Source: a virus
Lineage: Duplodnaviria; Caudoviricetes
IMG/VR virus record: IMGVR_UViG_3300027656_000007
Span: 1-64,000 of that record
Strand: one strand, 5' to 3'
DNA: 64,000 nucleotides
The notes beneath the pieces are model-generated. The model was given only the letters and a program-made list of their open reading frames with translations, searched no databases and was not told the DNA's origin. Positions 7,564 to 26,412 of this stretch are shown here, piece by piece. The translations under genes and the position numbers were made by a program. Within the stretch, counting starts at the first letter, position 1. Every line of letters begins with the position of its first letter.

Positions 7564-9641
7564 TCCAAATTAAAAATTTAACTGTTAAGAACTTTATGAG
7601 TGTGGGCAATGCTACACAAGGTATTGACTTTAACCGTAACGACCTTACATTGGTACTGGGCGAGAACTTAGACTTAGGTGGCGATGGCTCGCGCAACGGC
7701 ACAGGCAAGACCACAATCATCAATGCATTGAGTTATGCCCTGTATGGACAAGCATTAAGCAACATTCGCAAGGATAATCTTGTGAACAAAACCAACAGCA
7801 AAGGCATGTTGGTCAGTTTGGACTTTGTTGTAAACGGTCAAGAATACAAGATTGAGCGTGGGCGTAAACCCAACGTATTGCGTTTTTATGTCAACAACGA
7901 AGCTCAAGTGGCCACAGACGAAGCACAAGGTGACAGTCGCGAAACACAGGATGCCATTGAACGTGTTATGAACATGAGTCACGACATGTTCAAACATGTG
8001 TTGGCCTTGAACACCTACACTGAACCATTCTTGAGTTTGAAGGCCAACGACCAGCGTAATATCATTGAACAGTTGTTGGGCATTACCTTGCTTTCGGAAC
8101 GTGCAGATGCTATCAAAGAACTCAATCGTCAAACCAAAGACAGTGTCAGTCAAGAAGAATTCCGTATCCGTGCAGAACAAGAAGCTAACCGACGCATTGA
8201 AGAACAGATCGAAAGTTTGAAACGCAGACAAGTGCTGTGGCAGAAGAAGTACGACAGTGATGTTGCGTACCTTGTGGCACAATATGATGATCTAGCAAAA
8301 ATTGATATTGAGGTAGAACTGCTGGCTCACAAAGATCTAGCTGTGTGGACCGCAAGAAAACAACAGCAAGACGCATACATTGCTCTTGTGGGTCGACAGA
8401 CTGCATGGAAGCAAAAACAAGACCGAGACATTAGAGAGTTAGAATCATCTTACAATGATCTCAGTCATATTGATATTCAGGCAGAATTACAGGCACACGT
8501 GGACTTGGCCGCACACACACAACAAGCCAAGGACATTGCTGAGCTTGAGAAGCTGATTGCTAGGTGTGTAGTTGACGAAGAAAAAGAACAAAAGACCATT
8601 GACAAACTTCGGACCGAAATTGAAGAGTTAAAAAATCACAAGTGCTATGCCTGTGGGCAAGACTTTCACGACGCCAATCACGAAACAGTGTTGGCCACTA
8701 AAGAAAAAGCCCTACAAGAAGCCGCACTGCAAGCACTGGCTACCAACGGTCAGTGGATGGAAAATACAGATGCATTACGAGCACTAGGTGCCTTGGGTGC
8801 TAAACCTACCACACACTACCGAACAGAAACAGAAGCCATTCGTCATTCAAGTGAACTGGAAAACATTCAGCACAAGATTGATGCCAAACGTGCAGAAACA
8901 GACCCATATGCCGAACAGCTGGCAGAGCACACGCCTGTAGAAGCGGGCACACCGCCTGTTACACACTACGATACAGAAGCACAAGCTGTTGATCATCGCG
9001 GTCGTATGAACACCTTGCTGACACAGATTGCCACTAAGGGTGAAGAGAAAGATCCTTATACTGAACAAATTGCCGAAATGCAACACCAGGCATTGCAGAC
9101 TGTGAGTTATGATGCACTCAACGAACTCACACGCTTGCAAGAGCATCAAGACTTCTTACTCAAACTGTTGACATCAAAAGATTCATTTGTTCGCAAGAAG
9201 ATCATTGATCAGAATTTGAGTTACCTAAATTCAAGACTCACACACTATTTGGATCGTATTGGATTACCACACACTGTAAAGTTCCAGAATGATTTAACTG
9301 TAAGCATTGAAGAACTGGGTCGTGAGTTGGACTTTGACAACTTGAGTCGTGGCGAACGTAACCGATTGATCTTGAGCATGAGCTGGGCATTCCGCGATGT
9401 ATGGGAAAGTTTATACAGCCCAATCAACCTGTTGTTTATTGACGAACTGATTGACAATGGACTAGACACGCAAGGCGTGGAGAATGCATTGGCCTTGCTG
9501 AAGAAAATGAGTCGTGAACGTCACAAGTCAATCTGGCTCGTGAGTCACAGAGATGAGCTTGCTGGACGTGTGGAGAACATTCTCAAAGTGATCAAAGAAA
9601 ACGGCTTTACTAGTTACAACACGGATGTTGACCTTGCGTGA
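7560..9641 (+). CDS. gp46: Recombination ATPase subunit (Rad50/SbcC), T4 gp46-like
   Basis: Walker A NGTGKTT, zinc hook CYAC, signature LSRGE, Walker B LFIDE, H-loop VSHR. Confidence 0.93.
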   Translation: MIQIKNLTVKNFMSVGNATQGIDFNRNDLTLVLGENLDLGGDGSRNGTGKTTIINALSYALYGQALSNIRKDNLVNKTNSKGMLVSLDFVVNGQEYKIERGRKPNVLRFYVNNEAQVATDEAQGDSRETQDAIERVMNMSHDMFKHVLALNTYTEPFLSLKANDQRNIIEQLLGITLLSERADAIKELNRQTKDSVSQEEFRIRAEQEANRRIEEQIESLKRRQVLWQKKYDSDVAYLVAQYDDLAKIDIEVELLAHKDLAVWTARKQQQDAYIALVGRQTAWKQKQDRDIRELESSYNDLSHIDIQAELQAHVDLAAHTQQAKDIAELEKLIARCVVDEEKEQKTIDKLRTEIEELKNHKCYACGQDFHDANHETVLATKEKALQEAALQALATNGQWMENTDALRALGALGAKPTTHYRTETEAIRHSSELENIQHKIDAKRAETDPYAEQLAEHTPVEAGTPPVTHYDTEAQAVDHRGRMNTLLTQIATKGEEKDPYTEQIAEMQHQALQTVSYDALNELTRLQEHQDFLLKLLTSKDSFVRKKIIDQNLSYLNSRLTHYLDRIGLPHTVKFQNDLTVSIEELGRELDFDNLSRGERNRLILSMSWAFRDVWESLYSPINLLFIDELIDNGLDTQGVENALALLKKMSRERHKSIWLVSHRDELAGRVENILKVIKENGFTSYNTDVDLA

Positions 9642-10497
9642 TATAAAAGTTCTACACCTAGAGCCCACTGATGTGTGCCAAGCGGCCTGCGCTTTGTGTG
9701 CTCGCGAAACAGATCAAAATTTTAGAAAAGATCTTCAACATCATCTTTCAATGAGTCAAATCATCAAGGTATTTGGCCAAGAAAAAATCCAACAACTGGA
9801 CAAAATGTTCATGTGTGGAGTGTATGGTGATCCTGCTGCTGGCAAGTACACATTGGACATCTATAGAGAATTCCGAAAACTTAACCCCAACATTGTGTTG
9901 GGCATGAACTCCAATGGCAGCATACAAAGCACAATTTGGTGGCATGAACTGGGCACAATGTTCAATCAATCCCAAGACTATGTGGTATTTTCAATTGATG
10001 GTCTCGAAAGTACCAATCATGTGTATCGTAAAAATGTCTCTTGGACCAAGCTCATGCAAAACGCACAAGCGTTTATTGCAGCCGGAGGTTCTGCACACTG
10101 GGACATGTTGGTTTATCGACACAATCAACACCAAGTGGATGAATGTGAGCAGTTGGCACGAGACATGGGGTTTACATGGTTTAGAGCCAAGGTCAGTCGA
10201 CGAGGATTTACAGATAACCTAGAACAGCCCATTGGTTGGCAGCTGCCAAACGTGCAAGGCACAAAAATAAACTGTCATGCACTCAATGAACAAAGTACAT
10301 ATATCGATGCACAGGGTCGAGAAAGTCCGTGCTGTTGGTTGGGGTCAAGACAAAAAGATTTTGTAACAGACTTTGAAGAAGTCAAGAACTCCTGGACCAG
10401 CATTCAACCCAATATTGTTTGCATGGATGCTTGTGGTACTACCGATATTGAGACTAGTTTTAGCAAGCAATGGCAACGAGCAGTAGAATTATGTTAG
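9625..10497 (+). CDS. Radical SAM protein with C-terminal Cys-rich (Twitch/SPASM-like) region
   Basis: CQAACALC (CxxxCxxC), MCGVYGDP, FSIDG, C-terminal C...PCCW...CMDAC. Confidence 0.85.
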   Translation: MLTLRDIKVLHLEPTDVCQAACALCARETDQNFRKDLQHHLSMSQIIKVFGQEKIQQLDKMFMCGVYGDPAAGKYTLDIYREFRKLNPNIVLGMNSNGSIQSTIWWHELGTMFNQSQDYVVFSIDGLESTNHVYRKNVSWTKLMQNAQAFIAAGGSAHWDMLVYRHNQHQVDECEQLARDMGFTWFRAKVSRRGFTDNLEQPIGWQLPNVQGTKINCHALNEQSTYIDAQGRESPCCWLGSRQKDFVTDFEEVKNSWTSIQPNIVCMDACGTTDIETSFSKQWQRAVELC

Positions 10498-11501
10498 CAA
10501 CTTGGCATTTTCATATTGAGATTTCCAGCAAGTGTACCTTGCGGTGCCCCCGGTGTTCTCGGCAGGAAGTGCCCAACGGCCTTGTCAACACAGAACTAGA
10601 TTTGGAATTTTTCAAACGTAACTTTACTCCAGAGTTTGTACAAACACATATAGAGAAAATTACATTTTGTGGCGACGACGGCGATCCCATCTATGCACAT
10701 GACTTGATCCCGGTTATAGAATACATCAAAAGCATCAAGCCGGTAGAGATTGTGATCGTGACCAATGGCTCACATAAGAAAGTTCAATGGTGGACACAGT
10801 TGGGCCAACTGTTAGACTCCAATGACAGTGTACATTTCAGCATCGACGGGTATGATAACGACAGTAATAACATATATCGCATCAACAGTGATTACGACAG
10901 TATCATTTTAGGACTAAAAACATTGCGAGCCACAAGTGATTGCAAAATTATCTGGGCCGCGATTGCATTCAAGTTCAACGAAGAACACTTGGACACTATG
11001 AAAGCGTTTGCACACACTGTGGGAGTTGATCGATTTCAATTGACCAAGAGCACCAAGTTTGGCAGTGTGTATCCATCCTACGGGGTCAGCGATCCACTAC
11101 AACCCAGTGTAAAATATATCAGCAGTACACATCGCTTTGAACGTGAGTTCACTGCCTTGACACCACGGGACAAAGTGGAATCAATTTCCACTACCAACAT
11201 TAAATTATTCAATCAAATTAAAAGCAGCAACGGCATTACTCCGTTGTGCATGATAGGCAACAAAGGCTTGTACATTGATGCCCGCGGTAGGTTATTTCCC
11301 TGCTGTTGGGTAGCAAATAGATACAGCCACAATTCAGACTGGCAGCAACTGGCAAACAATTTTGATCTACATAAAAAAACTTTAACAACTGTGCTGGCAG
11401 ACACATTTTGGTCTACAGAATTTCAAACATTTAAATGGCAGGAATGCCAGACCAAGTGCAAGAGTTCAGTGGTAGATAAAAATTATGCAACTGCCTGGTG
11501 A
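10491..11501 (+). CDS. Radical SAM protein, paralog of upstream gene
   Basis: CTLRCPRC, FCGDDGDP, FSIDG, PLC...FPCCW...CQTKC; ATG 10491 overlaps the upstream stop. Confidence 0.85.
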   Translation: MLATWHFHIEISSKCTLRCPRCSRQEVPNGLVNTELDLEFFKRNFTPEFVQTHIEKITFCGDDGDPIYAHDLIPVIEYIKSIKPVEIVIVTNGSHKKVQWWTQLGQLLDSNDSVHFSIDGYDNDSNNIYRINSDYDSIILGLKTLRATSDCKIIWAAIAFKFNEEHLDTMKAFAHTVGVDRFQLTKSTKFGSVYPSYGVSDPLQPSVKYISSTHRFEREFTALTPRDKVESISTTNIKLFNQIKSSNGITPLCMIGNKGLYIDARGRLFPCCWVANRYSHNSDWQQLANNFDLHKKTLTTVLADTFWSTEFQTFKWQECQTKCKSSVVDKNYATAW

Positions 11502-11518
11502 TCCGATAACTATGTTAC

Positions 11519-11947
11519 ATGACATGGTTCTACAACAATCAACTGATAGAAACTCTACCCGACGATTGTGTGGGCTTTGTCTATTTGATTACAAATAATC
11601 TTTCTGGACGCAAGTACATAGGCAAAAAATTAGCAAAATTTAGTAAAACAACGCAACGCACTGTCAAACTTAAAAACGGCACAAAGAAGAAGAAAAAGAT
11701 ACGATCAAAGGTCGACTCAGACTGGAGAGAGTACTATGGGTCAAGCCCAGAATTGACTTCGGACATCGAAAAACTAGGCACCGAAAACTTCACCAGAGAA
11801 ATACTTTACTATTGCAAATCCAAAAGCGAATGCAGTTACATTGAGGCACGGGAACAATTTGCAAGACAAGTATTAGAATCACGAGATTATTACAACGGCC
11901 ATATACAAGTGCGTGTACATGGCTCACACATTATAAACAAACTGTAA
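11519..11947 (+). CDS. GIY-YIG family nuclease (Seg-like), free-standing
   Basis: GFVY...KYIG motif pair, YYGSS, EAREQF, YYNG; Lys-rich insertion KLKNGTKKKKKIRSK. Confidence 0.8.
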   Translation: MTWFYNNQLIETLPDDCVGFVYLITNNLSGRKYIGKKLAKFSKTTQRTVKLKNGTKKKKKIRSKVDSDWREYYGSSPELTSDIEKLGTENFTREILYYCKSKSECSYIEAREQFARQVLESRDYYNGHIQVRVHGSHIINKL

Positions 11948-12290
11948 GGCAGCATTAACGACACTGTGTTGGGTGACATGGCCCAACCCCATTGAGGATA
12001 TGTGAGATACCATATTCAGATTCTTGGGCGTCAAAGGCAATTGCTAACTTAAGGCAACAAATGGTTTGGGCTCCGTTGAAAAAGATACGACCCATGCTTA
12101 TAGGACTTGGATCTACATCGGGTTACTAGGGTTCCGTTGATATGTGAAGCTTGAGTAGGGGGTACCGGTCAACCGCCTCCGCGCAGGAAACTGCAATCTC
12201 ATTATGATAGATGACTGGGCTACTCAGATAATGCTAGGCTCATCGTTCACCGTGCTTACGGTGAATTATGACCAGTTAATCTAGATAATA
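11948..12290 (+). ncRNA. Candidate large structured non-coding RNA of unknown family
   Basis: No ORF of 60 aa or more. Hand-found helices: 11951-57/12229-35, 11968-73/11982-87, 11996-12002/12011-17, 12152-58/12220-26, GCAG-GAAA-CUGC 12183-94, 12246-53/12258-65, and crossing helix 12208-18/12272-83. Confidence 0.7.
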
Positions 12291-12305
12291 CTTAAAGAAG
12301 AAGAC

Positions 12306-12357
12306 AAAGAAAAAATTGACGAGCAGAGCGAAGTCAATAGAACTTCGCAGAAGTTCT
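12306..12357 (-). terminator. Intrinsic terminator region for the leftward operon (two hairpins plus U-tract)
   Basis: AGAACTTC-gca-GAAGTTCT 12339-57 at the nucleosidase stop; ATTGAC...GTCAAT 12315-38 followed on the minus strand by a T-rich tract (A-tract 12306-15). Confidence 0.65.
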
Positions 12358-12899
12358 TAAATGGTTACGCCAAGTTCTTGCAGTTTAGCAACAAAGAATG
12401 ATTGGCCTTGAGAAACAGATTGTTGCCATGAGGTATGAGCAGAGTGATCTGCTTGATCAGTGATGTACTTGAAACAACGAAATTCAATACGATTACGCAG
12501 ACAGACTTTGGCAATGGCATAGGCTTCCATGTCTACTAGATCTGCAGGAATGTCTAGCTCTGGGTTCATCACAAAGTCATCGCCGGTGCTGCAGGTGAGT
12601 CCTGCTGTGCCAGTGGTTAAGATAATATCATCTTCAAATGGTGTTTGGCCATTGCTGCATCCTAGCCCCAGGCATCGGATATCACGTTGTACAAAATGAC
12701 TGCATTCATGTAGTCCGGGCCCAACTGTTATGCCACCCGCTGTGCCAAGATTGATCACACGATCGGGTTGATATCGTTCAATCACCTGCGCCGCAGTCAT
12801 GGCAGCATTTACTTTGCCAACTCCGGTATAAAACACATTCATCATGTGCCGTAGACCCGGAGCTTCAGCCTGCAAGGCAATTAAAACTATGGTTTTCAT
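12357..12899 (-). CDS. mtnN: 5'-methylthioadenosine/S-adenosylhomocysteine nucleosidase
   Basis: IAL..E, TGVGKVNAA, INLGTAGG, DMEAYA, KYITDQA motifs of the PNP/UDP/MTAN family. Confidence 0.88.
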   Translation of the reverse strand: MKTIVLIALQAEAPGLRHMMNVFYTGVGKVNAAMTAAQVIERYQPDRVINLGTAGGITVGPGLHECSHFVQRDIRCLGLGCSNGQTPFEDDIILTTGTAGLTCSTGDDFVMNPELDIPADLVDMEAYAIAKVCLRNRIEFRCFKYITDQADHSAHTSWQQSVSQGQSFFVAKLQELGVTI

Positions 12900-25416: not shown

Positions 25417-25476
25417 GACAATATTTACATGTTATTCAGCAGGCATTAAAATATCATGACTGCATAAATACTTGTC

Positions 25477-25560
25477 AACGCAATCATGCGTTTTATGCAG
25501 GCTTAAGACCCCTGCGTAGCGGCTAGAACCCGCATCGGACTTCTTTAAGGAGAAAACAAA
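25477..25560 (+). promoter_or_regulatory. Structured 5' leader (three hairpins, loops complementary to SD-proximal sequence)
   Basis: Follows CATAAATA 25463-70; stems 25477-82/87-92, 25495-501/511-17, 25519-22/30-33. Confidence 0.55.
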
Positions 25561-26412
25561 ATGGGTCGTCCTTTAAAAATAGCAAAAAATTCACCTATGT
25601 CTGGAATCTTTTATGATCCCAGCAATCAAGGCACAACAGCACAATCTGTGCCAGTTGACATAGGTTATCCTCCATTTGCCGCACCAACCAGCATGGACAC
25701 AAACACAGTAGTTCTACCATCTCCTGCATCAACAACAGTGCCATTCACAGGTGTGGTGGGCGGCGCTCAAATTATTAGTTCACCAAGCGCAAGTTACCCA
25801 GTGGTCAGTTGCCAAGTAAACATTGCACTACCAGATGGAACAGGTGCAGGTGTTGCTACAGGTCAAATCATACGTCAAAAAGGTTCTCACAAATTCTTAG
25901 TGGTTGACAGTACTGTTCTTAATGATGAAGAATTTGTAGTTGGCGCAAGTTATATGATTCTCACATTGGATACCACAAACTGGCAACAAATGGGTGCTCC
26001 AGTTGGTGCCATAGCAGGTACAATTTTCACTTGCACAGCAGTTTGTGCTAATCCACAAAACGGTACTGGTTTGTTGGTTGGAAATTGTGTACTCACAGAC
26101 AGTAACACTCCAACAGTGGGCAACATGAGTATTGCCATGGCAGTAGGCGGCGACAGTACAGAAGTGTATATCAGCAAGCTGACCAACAAATTTGCACAAG
26201 ACTTCAACGGTGGTGCCACAGGCGGCAATGCCGATTCTGGAGATGTTTGGAATCCTGGTCAAGTCGTCAATGACATTGAGTATGTGGCCAACTTCTTCAC
26301 AGACGAAAGCACATTTACCAAGAGTGGTGCCGAAACAGCAACCTGGGCTGGCACAGCACAAAACAGCAATGGCACACTGGGCCTTGCTCAAGTTGAAAAA
26401 ATTACATCTTAA
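25561..26412 (+). CDS. Virion structural protein (head-proximal, function unknown)
   Basis: 283 aa Gly/Thr/Val-rich; AAGGAG SD; first gene of the fibre/structural run. Confidence 0.65.
   Translation: MGRPLKIAKNSPMSGIFYDPSNQGTTAQSVPVDIGYPPFAAPTSMDTNTVVLPSPASTTVPFTGVVGGAQIISSPSASYPVVSCQVNIALPDGTGAGVATGQIIRQKGSHKFLVVDSTVLNDEEFVVGASYMILTLDTTNWQQMGAPVGAIAGTIFTCTAVCANPQNGTGLLVGNCVLTDSNTPTVGNMSIAMAVGGDSTEVYISKLTNKFAQDFNGGATGGNADSGDVWNPGQVVNDIEYVANFFTDESTFTKSGAETATWAGTAQNSNGTLGLAQVEKITS

What the first reader, a model, noticed from the sequence alone, without database searches (positions are those of the whole stretch)
11948..12290. Large, pseudoknotted non-coding RNA candidate in an otherwise gap-free phage segment
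This is the largest non-coding gap in the window, and it pairs extensively. Seen in sequence: long-range closing helix AGCATTA/TAATGCT (11951-57/12229-35); hairpins GTTGGG/CCCAAC (11968-87), GGATATG/CATATTC (11996-12017), TTGCT/GGCAA (~12041-57) and a long irregular hairpin at ~12093-12135; helix TGAGTAG/CTACTCA (12152-58/12220-26) enclosing GGGGGT..GCCTCC, CGG-TCAA-CCG and GCAG-GAAA-CTGC; perfect 8-bp hairpin 12246-65; and an 11-bp helix TAGATGACTGG/CCAGTT(A)ATCTA (12208-18/12272-83) that crosses both long-range helices. The strand order of the crossing helices recalls the P3/P7/P8 order of group I ribozyme cores, but canonical R/S sequences and flanking exons are missing. Inference: a stand-alone ornate RNA (ribozyme, scaffold or guide-bearing RNA). 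I cannot assign it to a family I know.
Basis: partly seen in the sequence, partly recalled or inferred. Interest (0 to 1): 0.88.

Follow-up and report, generated by a model that had tools for sequence, protein, structure and literature searches.

The report
Twin-word structured RNA behind phage nuclease
The gene-free gap holds a real, roughly 400-base folded and knotted non-coding RNA. It is shared by hundreds of uncultured lake phages, always follows a small DNA-cutting enzyme gene, and carries the same 7-letter word twice; its job is still unknown.

Summary
The gap 11948-12356 is the largest ORF-free stretch of the window. It encodes a genuine + strand structured RNA (about 11958-12356).

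- **Conservation:** more than 200 related IMG/VR contigs keep it at 69-98% identity.
- **Structure:** on 97 distinct copies, a 16-helix fold with one pseudoknot is 95.4% paired. 57 of 93 pairs change on both sides, and no shuffle reaches this.
the local hairpins are right. The three long-range helices, including the claimed 11-bp pseudoknot, are not conserved. The real pseudoknot joins the loop at 12111-18 to 12204-12.
- **Family:** no Rfam family matches the window and it is not group I. Sister phages carry Rfam Polynucleobacter-1 as a different 5' domain on the same uncatalogued 3' module.
- **Twin word:** the 3' module shows the same 7-nt word twice (12226-32 and 12283-89) around a hairpin. 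Thirteen words occur across lineages, almost always identical in both copies.
- **Linkage:** a small nuclease gene (GIY-YIG, or an unrelated PDDEXK type) lies upstream in 62 of 62 independently sampled loci.

Function is not shown. I read it as a stand-alone RNA that travels with a nuclease as a two-part cassette. This scan had already found the same RNA family on other DNA; I re-tested those leads here.

The parts
11519..11947 (+). Small GIY-YIG nuclease gene (142 aa, catalytic domain only). It lies upstream of the RNA on the same strand.
   Evidence: Pfam PF19835 SegE_GIY-YIG, E 9e-34. It is present upstream of the RNA in nearly all related loci. Its length and motifs are conserved in 114 distinct copies.
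11958..12356 (+). The structured RNA as a whole (5' domain, 3' twin-word module, two terminal hairpins).
   Evidence: Conserved at 69-98% nt identity in 117 full-length copies. Covariation was tested on alignment A1. Several G-U pairs that never or hardly ever vary fit only the + strand.
11960..12032 (+). Multi-helix junction. P1 (11960-62/12030-32) encloses P2 (11968-74/11981-87) and P3 (11988-91/12025-28). P3 in turn encloses P4 (11996-12002/12011-17).
   Evidence: Pairs with changes on both sides: P1 2 of 3, P2 6 of 7, P3 3 of 4, P4 6 of 7.
12041..12057 (+). P5 hairpin.
   Evidence: 4 of 5 pairs change on both sides; 96% of cells paired.
12063..12098 (+). P6 hairpin (12063-70/12091-98) with an inner helix (12074-76/12087-89).
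   Evidence: The pair 12067/12094 occurs as UA 45, GC 41, CG 9; 98% of cells paired.
12101..12128 (+). P7 irregular hairpin. Its loop forms the pseudoknot.
   Evidence: 3 of 9 pairs change on both sides; 99.8% paired.
12111..12212 (+). Pseudoknot PK1: the P7 loop 12111-18 pairs with the joining segment 12204-12.
   Evidence: 5 of 8 pairs change on both sides; 92.5% paired. C-G to U-A at 12113/12210 occurs in 32 copies.
12126..12181 (+). Nearly invariant core. It holds the 5' strand of P9 (12152-55, pairing with 12198-12201), P10 (12158-62/12176-80) and P11 (12166-68/12173-75).
   Evidence: Long runs of invariant columns in 97 copies. P9 12152/12201 occurs as UA 56 and AU 41. P10 12158/12180 occurs as GC 79 and AU 18. 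The P10-P11 element is shared with the Polynucleobacter-1-type sister RNAs.
12183..12194 (+). P12, a GNRA-capped hairpin.
   Evidence: All 4 pairs change on both sides.
12222..12232 (+). Box 1: constant prefix ACUC (12222-25) followed by the 7-nt word (12226-32).
   Evidence: The word is identical to Box 2 in 97 of 97 copies. No other column covaries with it.
12245..12266 (+). Hairpin H between the two boxes.
   Evidence: 98.6% paired; 3 of 9 pairs change on both sides. Other RNA types have a different hairpin at the same place.
12279..12289 (+). Box 2: constant prefix AUCU (12279-82) followed by the same 7-nt word (12283-89).
12315..12338 (+). T1 hairpin (12315-20/12333-38) with a conserved purine-rich internal loop and an inner 2-bp helix.
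   Evidence: All 8 pairs change on both sides. It is shared by all RNA types.
12340..12356 (+). T2 hairpin, the likely 3' end or terminator. It abuts the stop codon of the convergent gene.
   Evidence: 6 of 7 pairs change on both sides. It is kept in loci where the downstream gene differs.
12357..12899 (-). Convergent neighbour, a phosphorylase-superfamily gene. This is context only and is not conserved next to the RNA.
   Evidence: Pfam PF01048. Downstream neighbours fall into 21 families across loci.

Best explanation
The gap encodes a genuine non-coding RNA of about 400 nt, read from the + strand. It has no room for a promoter of its own. It starts within a few bases of the stop codon of the gene before it, so it is most likely made as the tail of that transcript and ends at the paired hairpins T1/T2.

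Its 5' two-thirds fold into a compact, pseudoknotted domain. Its 3' third is a module shared with otherwise different RNAs, among them the longer natural form of Rfam Polynucleobacter-1. That module shows the same 7-nt word twice, each copy behind its own constant 4-nt prefix, on either side of a hairpin.

I read the RNA as a stand-alone functional RNA. It is inherited and moved together with a small domain-less nuclease gene (GIY-YIG here, PDDEXK elsewhere) as a two-part cassette, much as self-splicing introns travel with unrelated homing nucleases. The two words are most likely read by one and the same partner, probably a complementary nucleic-acid strand.

Shown here: the RNA, its strand, its fold, the twin-word rule, and the nuclease linkage. 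Inferred: co-transcription, cassette mobility, and that the words are docking sites. What the RNA does for the phage is not known.
For: **Conservation.** The sequence is kept at 69-98% nt identity in 117 full-length copies.

**Fold.** The fold is 95.4% paired against 85.2% in shuffles (0/500). 57 of 93 pairs change on both sides. The covariation score is 0.307 against 0.124 for shuffles and 0.04-0.07 for slid controls.

**Strand.** G-U pairs that never or hardly ever vary fit only the + strand.

**Not coding.** No ORF is longer than 55 codons, and indels are not in threes.

**Start of the RNA.** It abuts the upstream stop codon; in most loci the gap is -1 to about 20 nt.

**Twin words.** They are identical in 97 of 97 copies, with at least 22 changes on a tree built without the box columns and none discordant. 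130 of 141 distinct 3' modules match 7 of 7, against 0 of 141 shuffled controls reaching 6 of 7, and 13 different words occur.

**Shared 3' module.** It sits behind three or more different 5' bodies. RF01718 scores 90-120 bits in 12 sister loci.

**Nuclease linkage.** A nuclease lies upstream on the same strand in 62 of 62 loci sampled only by the T1 hairpin: 54 GIY-YIG and 8 PDDEXK. PDDEXK was confirmed by Pfam.

**Variable surroundings.** The pair's neighbours fall into 15 upstream and 21 downstream families. Both nuclease types occur in the same contexts.
Against:
- The single-sequence fold is no better than shuffled controls.
- No partner for the words was found. No column inside the RNA covaries with them, and no conserved internal complement exists.
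- An intact, conserved nuclease in every locus is unusual for a purely selfish homing gene. That points towards a closer functional tie than plain hitch-hiking.
- Cargo genes of 0.7-2 kb sit between nuclease and RNA in about a fifth of loci. Two loci (L095, L123) show no recognisable nuclease next to the RNA.
Confidence: 0.55

Rival explanations
1. RNA-assisted nuclease system. The RNA binds the small nuclease, which lacks any DNA-binding domain. It then targets, scaffolds or restrains the enzyme, with the twin words acting as guide or registration sequences.
For: The linkage to a nuclease is strict, 62 of 62 loci. Both nuclease types are bare catalytic domains of 142 and about 170 aa, whereas a relative with a NUMOD3 DNA-binding motif is 357 aa. 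The nuclease is intact and conserved in every locus. The words vary between lineages, as guides would.
Against: The same RNA type goes with two unrelated nuclease folds in the same contexts. No GIY-YIG residue tracks the word: the highest mutual information is 0.3-0.5 bit, against 0.94-1.07 bit between the two boxes. The same GIY-YIG family occurs in 475 cultured-phage records; the four examined have no such RNA. Two identical guides have no obvious use. Cargo genes can separate the two parts.
Confidence: 0.17
2. Cis-acting 3' end element. The RNA is a long structured trailer that ends, insulates or stabilises the upstream transcript, or controls the nuclease mRNA. It would not act in trans.
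For: It starts at the stop codon of the upstream gene with no room for a promoter. It ends in two covarying hairpins at a convergent gene junction.
Against: A 250-nt pseudoknotted domain with a 55-nt near-invariant core is far more than a terminator or stabiliser needs. It stays the same whatever ORF lies directly upstream.
Confidence: 0.1
3. Replication-origin or primer element. The twin boxes act at the DNA level like iterons around an extrudable hairpin, or the RNA forms an R-loop on its own gene, with the nuclease nicking to start synthesis.
For: Identical direct repeats that differ between lineages, placed around a perfect palindrome, resemble iteron-and-hairpin origins (general knowledge). 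A nuclease gene is always adjacent.
Against: G-U pairs and compensatory changes show selection on the RNA, including the base of hairpin H. There is no GC-skew turn at the site. The site lies at a convergent, not a divergent, gene junction. No protein residue tracks the word.
Confidence: 0.07
4. Self-processing ribozyme or copy-choice template. The two identical words mark two equivalent cut-and-join sites, or matched take-off and landing sites for a polymerase. This would resemble the ACA-1/ACA-2 words of the DRT2 non-coding RNA.
For: In DRT2, matched short words beside a stem-loop are needed for template jumping, and function is lost when their identity is broken (bioRxiv 10.1101/2024.05.08.593200). 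Here the words are identical, free to vary, and flank a hairpin.
Against: No reverse transcriptase lies next to the RNA. The box-to-box distance is 49-58 nt with no fixed phase and no conserved stop-free frame. No known ribozyme model matches. No copy with one or three units was seen among more than 200 loci.
Confidence: 0.06
5. No function: a decayed gene remnant or a chance fold.
For: The fold energy equals that of shuffled controls.
Against: The sequence is conserved as well as or better than the flanking genes, and 57 pairs show double changes that no shuffle reaches.
Confidence: 0.01

Closest known systems
Polynucleobacter-1 RNA motif (Rfam RF01718; Weinberg et al. 2010, PMC2864571)
   Same: It sits at the same genomic slot in sister phages, directly after the same GIY-YIG gene. 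It is followed by the same 3' module: the P10-P11 element, the twin words, a hairpin, and T1/T2. The 2010 supplement already noted that the motif lies downstream of one gene family and that it comes from lake and estuary samples.
   Different: The 141-nt Rfam model covers only the sister RNA's 5' domain. The window has an unrelated 5' domain there and gives no RF01718 hit even at E<=10. The shared 3' module, the twin words and the nuclease linkage are not part of the catalogued motif.
Self-splicing group I introns with homing endonucleases
   Same: In both cases one structured RNA is linked to small nucleases of unrelated folds, GIY-YIG and PD-(D/E)XK among them (general knowledge). The pair also sits in varying genomic contexts.
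   Different: There is no match to the group I model, no split host gene or exons, and the nuclease gene lies before the RNA rather than inside it. The crossing helices that suggested a group I core are not conserved.
DRT2 non-coding RNA (ACA-1/ACA-2 template-jumping words)
   Same: Two identical short words flank a stem-loop inside a pseudoknotted RNA. What matters is that the two words match, not what their sequence is.
   Different: There is no reverse transcriptase. The words are 7 nt rather than 3. The repeat unit carries no conserved reading frame. This RNA is encoded by a phage, not by a bacterial defence locus.
Large ornate RNAs of unknown function (GOLLD, ROOL, OLE, raiA)
   Same: These are also long, intricately folded RNAs that are common in phage or environmental DNA and were found by comparative analysis. 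GOLLD and ROOL form RNA-only assemblies (bioRxiv 10.1101/2024.12.08.627333; seen only as a title and abstract opening in the search listing, not read).
   Different: There is no model match. This RNA is smaller and has a modular, swappable 5' domain, the twin-word module and an obligate nuclease neighbour.

Membership tests
Polynucleobacter-1 (RF01718) | Match to the Rfam covariance model at or above the gathering score (37 bits). | tested here: not met
   No hit in the window at the gathering score or at E<=10 on 11850-12450. Twelve sister loci score 90-120 bits.
Polynucleobacter-1 (RF01718) | Position downstream of the GOS11034 / PSSM2_218-like gene family (Weinberg 2010 supplement). | not tested
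   The RNA follows a conserved GIY-YIG gene that has homologues in Prochlorococcus and Synechococcus phages. I did not check whether that family is the same as PSSM2_218.
Twin-word 3' module (uncatalogued; shared with the long form of Polynucleobacter-1) | P10-P11 element; two identical 7-nt words behind ACUC and AUCU around a hairpin; then T1 and T2. | tested here: met
   All elements are present at 12158-80, 12222-32, 12245-66, 12279-89 and 12315-56.
Group I intron (RF00028) / GIR1 | Match to the covariance model; conserved P3-P7-P8 core; flanking exons of a split gene. | tested here: not met
   No hit at E<=10. The crossing helices are not conserved. The neighbours are complete genes.
tRNA / tmRNA | Detected by ARAGORN. 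| tested here: not met
   No gene found in the whole window.
GOLLD, ROOL, HEARO, RAGATH, RNase P, OLE, raiA and all other Rfam 15 families | Match to the covariance model. | tested here: not met
   Only four chance-level hits appeared (E 2.9-8.1, far below the gathering scores), all on the minus strand.
Guide RNAs of IscB/TnpB (OMEGA) or CRISPR systems | An adjacent IscB, TnpB or Cas gene, with a single guide at one end of the scaffold. | tested here: not met
   The neighbours are a GIY-YIG gene and a phosphorylase-like gene. The variable word is internal and occurs twice.
DRT2-type template RNA | An adjacent reverse transcriptase, and a repeat unit that gives a stop-free reading frame. | tested here: not met
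   No reverse transcriptase among the neighbours. The period is 49-58 nt with no fixed phase and no conserved open frame.
Intrinsic terminator only | A G+C-rich hairpin followed by a U run, with nothing else conserved. | tested here: not met
   The simple scan finds no + strand terminator. About 340 nt upstream of T1/T2 are conserved and covary.

The most novel reading that the evidence does not exclude
The nuclease gene and the RNA form a new kind of RNA-dependent mobile or nuclease system. The domain-less nuclease (GIY-YIG or PDDEXK) would depend on the RNA. The two identical, freely evolving words would act as matched docking or registration sites on a nucleic-acid target, or as matched take-off and landing sites for a copying enzyme. 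That would make this a programmable element unrelated to CRISPR, OMEGA or bridge RNAs.
Probability: 0.15. Interest if true: 0.9.

Novelty: new variant of a known kind. Interest (0 to 1): 0.72.

Why it matters
Large, intricately folded RNAs are rare, and each one understood so far has revealed new biochemistry. This one has four features of interest:

- **It is abundant.** It occurs in hundreds of contigs of uncultured aquatic T4-like phages, some with genomes of 320-350 kb.
- **It is modular.** At least three unrelated 5' domains sit on one 3' module.
- **It obeys a rule not yet described.** Two copies of a 7-nt word must stay identical while the word itself is free to change.
- **It always follows a small nuclease gene** of one of two unrelated folds.

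The findings also extend a known family. The 16-year-old Rfam family Polynucleobacter-1 turns out to be only the front part of a longer RNA of this kind, and it belongs to phages.

The twin-word rule gives a sharp and cheap experimental handle: break the identity, then restore it with a new word. If the words prove to be docking or guide sequences, the system could be programmable.

Tried and rejected
- **Fold energy.** The single-sequence fold equals shuffled controls on both strands, so it is uninformative.
- **Known RNA families.** Rfam at the gathering score and at E<=10 gave nothing real in the gap. ARAGORN found nothing.
- **Cultured phages.** blastn of the window RNA and of two sister RNA types against 50,697 phage records found no match.
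- **Promoter and terminator scan.** No convincing + strand signal.
- **Box as a genome-wide motif.** 8 matches against 4.7 expected, so it is not enriched.
The closing helix, the TGAGTAG/CTACTCA helix and the 11-bp helix are not conserved.
- **Pairing of the variable stretches 5' of the two boxes** (CUGG/CCAG in the window). Cognate pairs are no better than non-cognate ones: -1.35 against -1.40 kcal/mol, p 0.72.
- **A third element covarying with the words inside the RNA.** None.
- **A conserved internal complement to the boxes.** The best site matches 8.7 of 11 with wobbles, on a strand already used by P7, and shows no covariation.
- **GIY-YIG residues tracking the word.** None.
- **A DRT2/neo-like reading frame in the repeat unit.** None.
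- **GC skew as a sign of an origin.** No turn at the site.
- **Exact-pattern scan of 185,579 prokaryote genomes.** Of 48 hits, only two contigs of one Haliscomenobacter MAG and one short Flavobacteriales MAG contig hold the RNA. The rest are chance matches in G+C-rich genomes.
I could not re-test the claim that the RNA also lies in small bacterial islands.

Full report
**1. What is at the site**

The window is part of a 72.7-kb IMG/VR virus record. It carries T4-type baseplate and Rad50-like genes. Positions 11948-12356 (409 nt) form the largest ORF-free stretch of the 64 kb. No reading frame there exceeds 55 codons.

The stretch lies between a 142-aa GIY-YIG nuclease gene (11519-11947, +; Pfam PF19835, E 9e-34) and a convergent phosphorylase-superfamily gene (12357-12899, -). 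Rfam finds no family in the gap, either at the gathering score or at E<=10. ARAGORN finds no tRNA or tmRNA. The minimum-energy fold of the single sequence is no better than dinucleotide shuffles on either strand (z 0.01 and -0.13). Comparative data overrule it.

**2. Conservation**

Loci were fetched through the two flanking proteins, through an invariant 21-mer of the RNA, and through the T1 hairpin. A profile search of these loci finds 117 full-length copies, 102 of them distinct, at 69-98% identity to the window. Many partial or divergent copies also turn up. Conservation starts near 11958 and runs to 12356. Indels are not in multiples of three.

**3. Structure**

I proposed a fold from mutual information and inspection, and tested it on a MAFFT alignment of 97 distinct copies (A1).

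- 95.4% of cells are paired, against 85.2% in shuffles (0/500).
- 57 of 93 pairs change on both sides.
- The covariation score is 0.307, against 0.124 for shuffles and 0.04-0.07 when partners are slid by 1-3 columns.

The fold has these parts:

- A multi-helix junction at 11960-12032: P1 encloses P2 and P3, and P3 encloses P4.
- Hairpins P5, P6 and P7.
- A pseudoknot between the P7 loop (12111-18) and the joining segment 12204-12. Five of its eight pairs change on both sides.
- A nearly invariant core at 12126-81. It holds one strand of P9 (12152-55 with 12198-12201), P10 and P11.
- The GNRA hairpin P12, hairpin H (12245-66), and two terminal hairpins T1 and T2.

Several G-U pairs that never or hardly ever vary would be A-C mismatches on the other strand. 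The RNA is therefore read from the + strand.

**4.

The local hairpins are right. The three long-range helices are not. Together they are 68.1% paired against 67.8% in shuffles, with a covariation score of 0.092 against 0.094.

- Base 12152 covaries with 12201, not with 12226.
- Base 12158 covaries with 12180, not with 12220.
- The segment 12208-12 covaries with the P7 loop, while its proposed partner 12279-83 never changes.
- The CUGG/CCAG part of the '11-bp helix' does not co-evolve: cognate pairs are no better than non-cognate ones.

The group I analogy was built on these crossings and so falls away.

**5. The twin word**

Two columns of Box 1 (12226, 12230) carry exactly the same letter as the matching columns of Box 2 (12283, 12287) in every copy. 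All four A/G combinations occur, plus a C-C case. No third column in the RNA covaries with them.

Each box is a constant 4-nt prefix (ACUC or AUCU) followed by a 7-nt word. On a maximum-likelihood tree built without the box columns, the word changes at least 22 times and is never discordant. Recombination may inflate that count. Even so, at least 13 different words exist across the wider family. 130 of 141 distinct 3' modules match 7 of 7, against none of 141 shuffled controls reaching even 6 of 7. Most of the remaining modules scored 0-3 of 7, probably because insertions pushed a box outside the 200-nt stretch I extracted. Two loci (L294, L313) are true 6-of-7 cases.

The two boxes lie within about 26-nt direct repeats that both begin with AUGAC or GUGAC. 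They flank hairpin H at a spacing of 49-58 nt.

**6. Relatives with other 5' domains**

In sister phages at the same locus, Rfam RF01718 (Polynucleobacter-1) scores 90-120 bits directly after the same GIY-YIG gene. It is followed by the P10-P11 element, twin words, a hairpin and T1/T2. This lead came from earlier notes of this scan, and I confirmed it here.

A third type has yet another 5' body and a different word, and it again carries that word twice. The constant part of the superfamily is therefore the 3' twin-word module, and the 5' domain is swappable.

The literature holds only the 2010 description of Polynucleobacter-1. That paper noted a position downstream of one gene family and found no example in cultured phages. 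A 2023 survey of IMG/VR lists candidates of only 29-151 nt. I could not check whether pieces of this RNA are among them.

**7. Link to nucleases**

In loci found through the RNA alone, a GIY-YIG gene lies upstream on the same strand. Its stop codon mostly falls -1 to about 20 nt from the RNA. Where that gene is absent, the upstream gene is a PF24608 PDDEXK nuclease, and in one lineage a 357-aa GIY-YIG with a NUMOD3 motif.

In an independent sample drawn only by the T1 hairpin, all 62 loci with at least 1 kb of upstream sequence have a nuclease: 54 GIY-YIG and 8 PDDEXK. The pair's outer neighbours fall into 15 upstream and 21 downstream families, and both nuclease types occur in the same contexts. 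In about a fifth of loci, diverse cargo ORFs of 0.7-2 kb sit between nuclease and RNA. By their N-terminal sequence motifs, two of these appear to be further GIY-YIG genes (not confirmed by a Pfam search). Two loci (L095, L123) show no recognisable nuclease next to the RNA.

The 142-aa GIY-YIG family itself is widespread. It occurs in 475 cultured-phage records at 36-48% identity, often labelled 'NAD synthetase'. In the four records examined it has no such RNA behind it. None of the three RNA types is found in 50,697 phage records.

**8. Tests of mechanisms**

- **Protein read-out of the word.** No GIY-YIG residue tracks the word. This argues against that protein reading the word.
- **Internal partner.** No internal complement to the boxes is conserved.
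- **Coding repeat.** The unit between the boxes has no fixed phase and no conserved open frame. A DRT2/neo-like coding repeat is therefore excluded.
- **Promoter-like motif.** The box is not a genome-wide motif.
- **Replication origin.** GC skew shows no turn at the site.
- **Expression.** This could not be examined.

**9. Reading**

Three things are firmly shown: a real + strand structured RNA with a defined fold, the twin-word rule, and an obligate nuclease neighbour of either of two folds.

My best reading (confidence 0.55 as a whole) is a stand-alone RNA made as the tail of the upstream transcript. It would be inherited with a small nuclease gene as a two-part cassette, on the pattern of introns with homing nucleases. 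Its two identical words would be read by one common partner, most likely a complementary strand.

The main rival (0.17) is a true RNA-nuclease partnership. In its favour, the nucleases are intact, conserved and lack DNA-binding domains. Against it, two unrelated folds share one RNA, there is no protein-word covariation, and the nuclease family lives without the RNA elsewhere. The lesser rivals are a cis-acting 3' element, an origin or primer element, and a self-processing or copy-choice RNA.

**10. Novelty**

The window's RNA is not a member of any catalogued family. It is a new variant within a superfamily of which only one 5' domain (Polynucleobacter-1) is catalogued. The twin-word rule, the modular 5' domains and the nuclease linkage are not in the literature I could search. 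This scan had noted the same RNA family on other genomes. My results agree with those notes on the fold, the twin word, the Polynucleobacter-1 link and the nuclease neighbour. I did not test their claims about bacterial islands or self-pairing onto DNA.

Noticed in passing
window 25476-25563 (+): Rfam freshwater-2 RNA (RF02980, 68.4 bits, full-length match), just upstream of the ORF at 25561-26412. This is a second catalogued lake-metagenome RNA motif in the same phage.
   Followed up: no
L087, L016, L008, L098, L177, L080, L072 and others (between the nuclease stop codon and the RNA start): The junction between the nuclease gene and the RNA is a hot spot for inserted genes. Unrelated ORFs of 200-340 aa sit there, and each ends right at the RNA start. 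By their N-terminal sequence motifs, two of them (L080, L072) appear to be further GIY-YIG genes.
   Followed up: partly
window 11519-11947; phage records MZ577098, GU071101, NC_070963, NC_028945: The 142-aa GIY-YIG family occurs in 475 cultured T4-like phage records, mostly cyanophages but also Methylophilales, Sinorhizobium, Stenotrophomonas and Erwinia phages. Many records label it 'NAD synthetase', which looks like an annotation error that has been copied from record to record.
   Followed up: partly
L231 and L240 (two contigs, 148 and 183 kb, of one Haliscomenobacter MAG); L224 (Flavobacteriales MAG): Complete nuclease-RNA cassettes lie on large contigs binned with Bacteroidota genomes. 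These are probably phage contigs, and the binning may hint at the host phylum.
   Followed up: no
L014 5480-5770, L083, L010 (between the GIY-YIG gene and the type-3 RNA): A conserved small ORF of about 95 aa, with a C-terminal CxxC pair, always sits between the nuclease gene and the third RNA type.
   Followed up: no
window 12321-12332 (loop of T1): The T1 hairpin has a conserved purine-rich internal loop (GA opposite GAA) around a 2-bp helix. It is kept in all RNA types, has a look similar to a kink-turn, and may be a protein-binding site.
   Followed up: no
L145 about 12350-12420, L171, L095 (upstream of the PDDEXK-type RNAs); window 11947-11957: A short AGGCA-containing motif is repeated two to four times just before the RNA start in PDDEXK-linked copies. 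It occurs once in the window. It may be a processing or promoter signal.
   Followed up: no
window 9625-11501: Two adjacent radical-SAM genes precede the cassette. The second one is the commonest upstream neighbour of the cassette across relatives (114 of 196 loci).
   Followed up: partly
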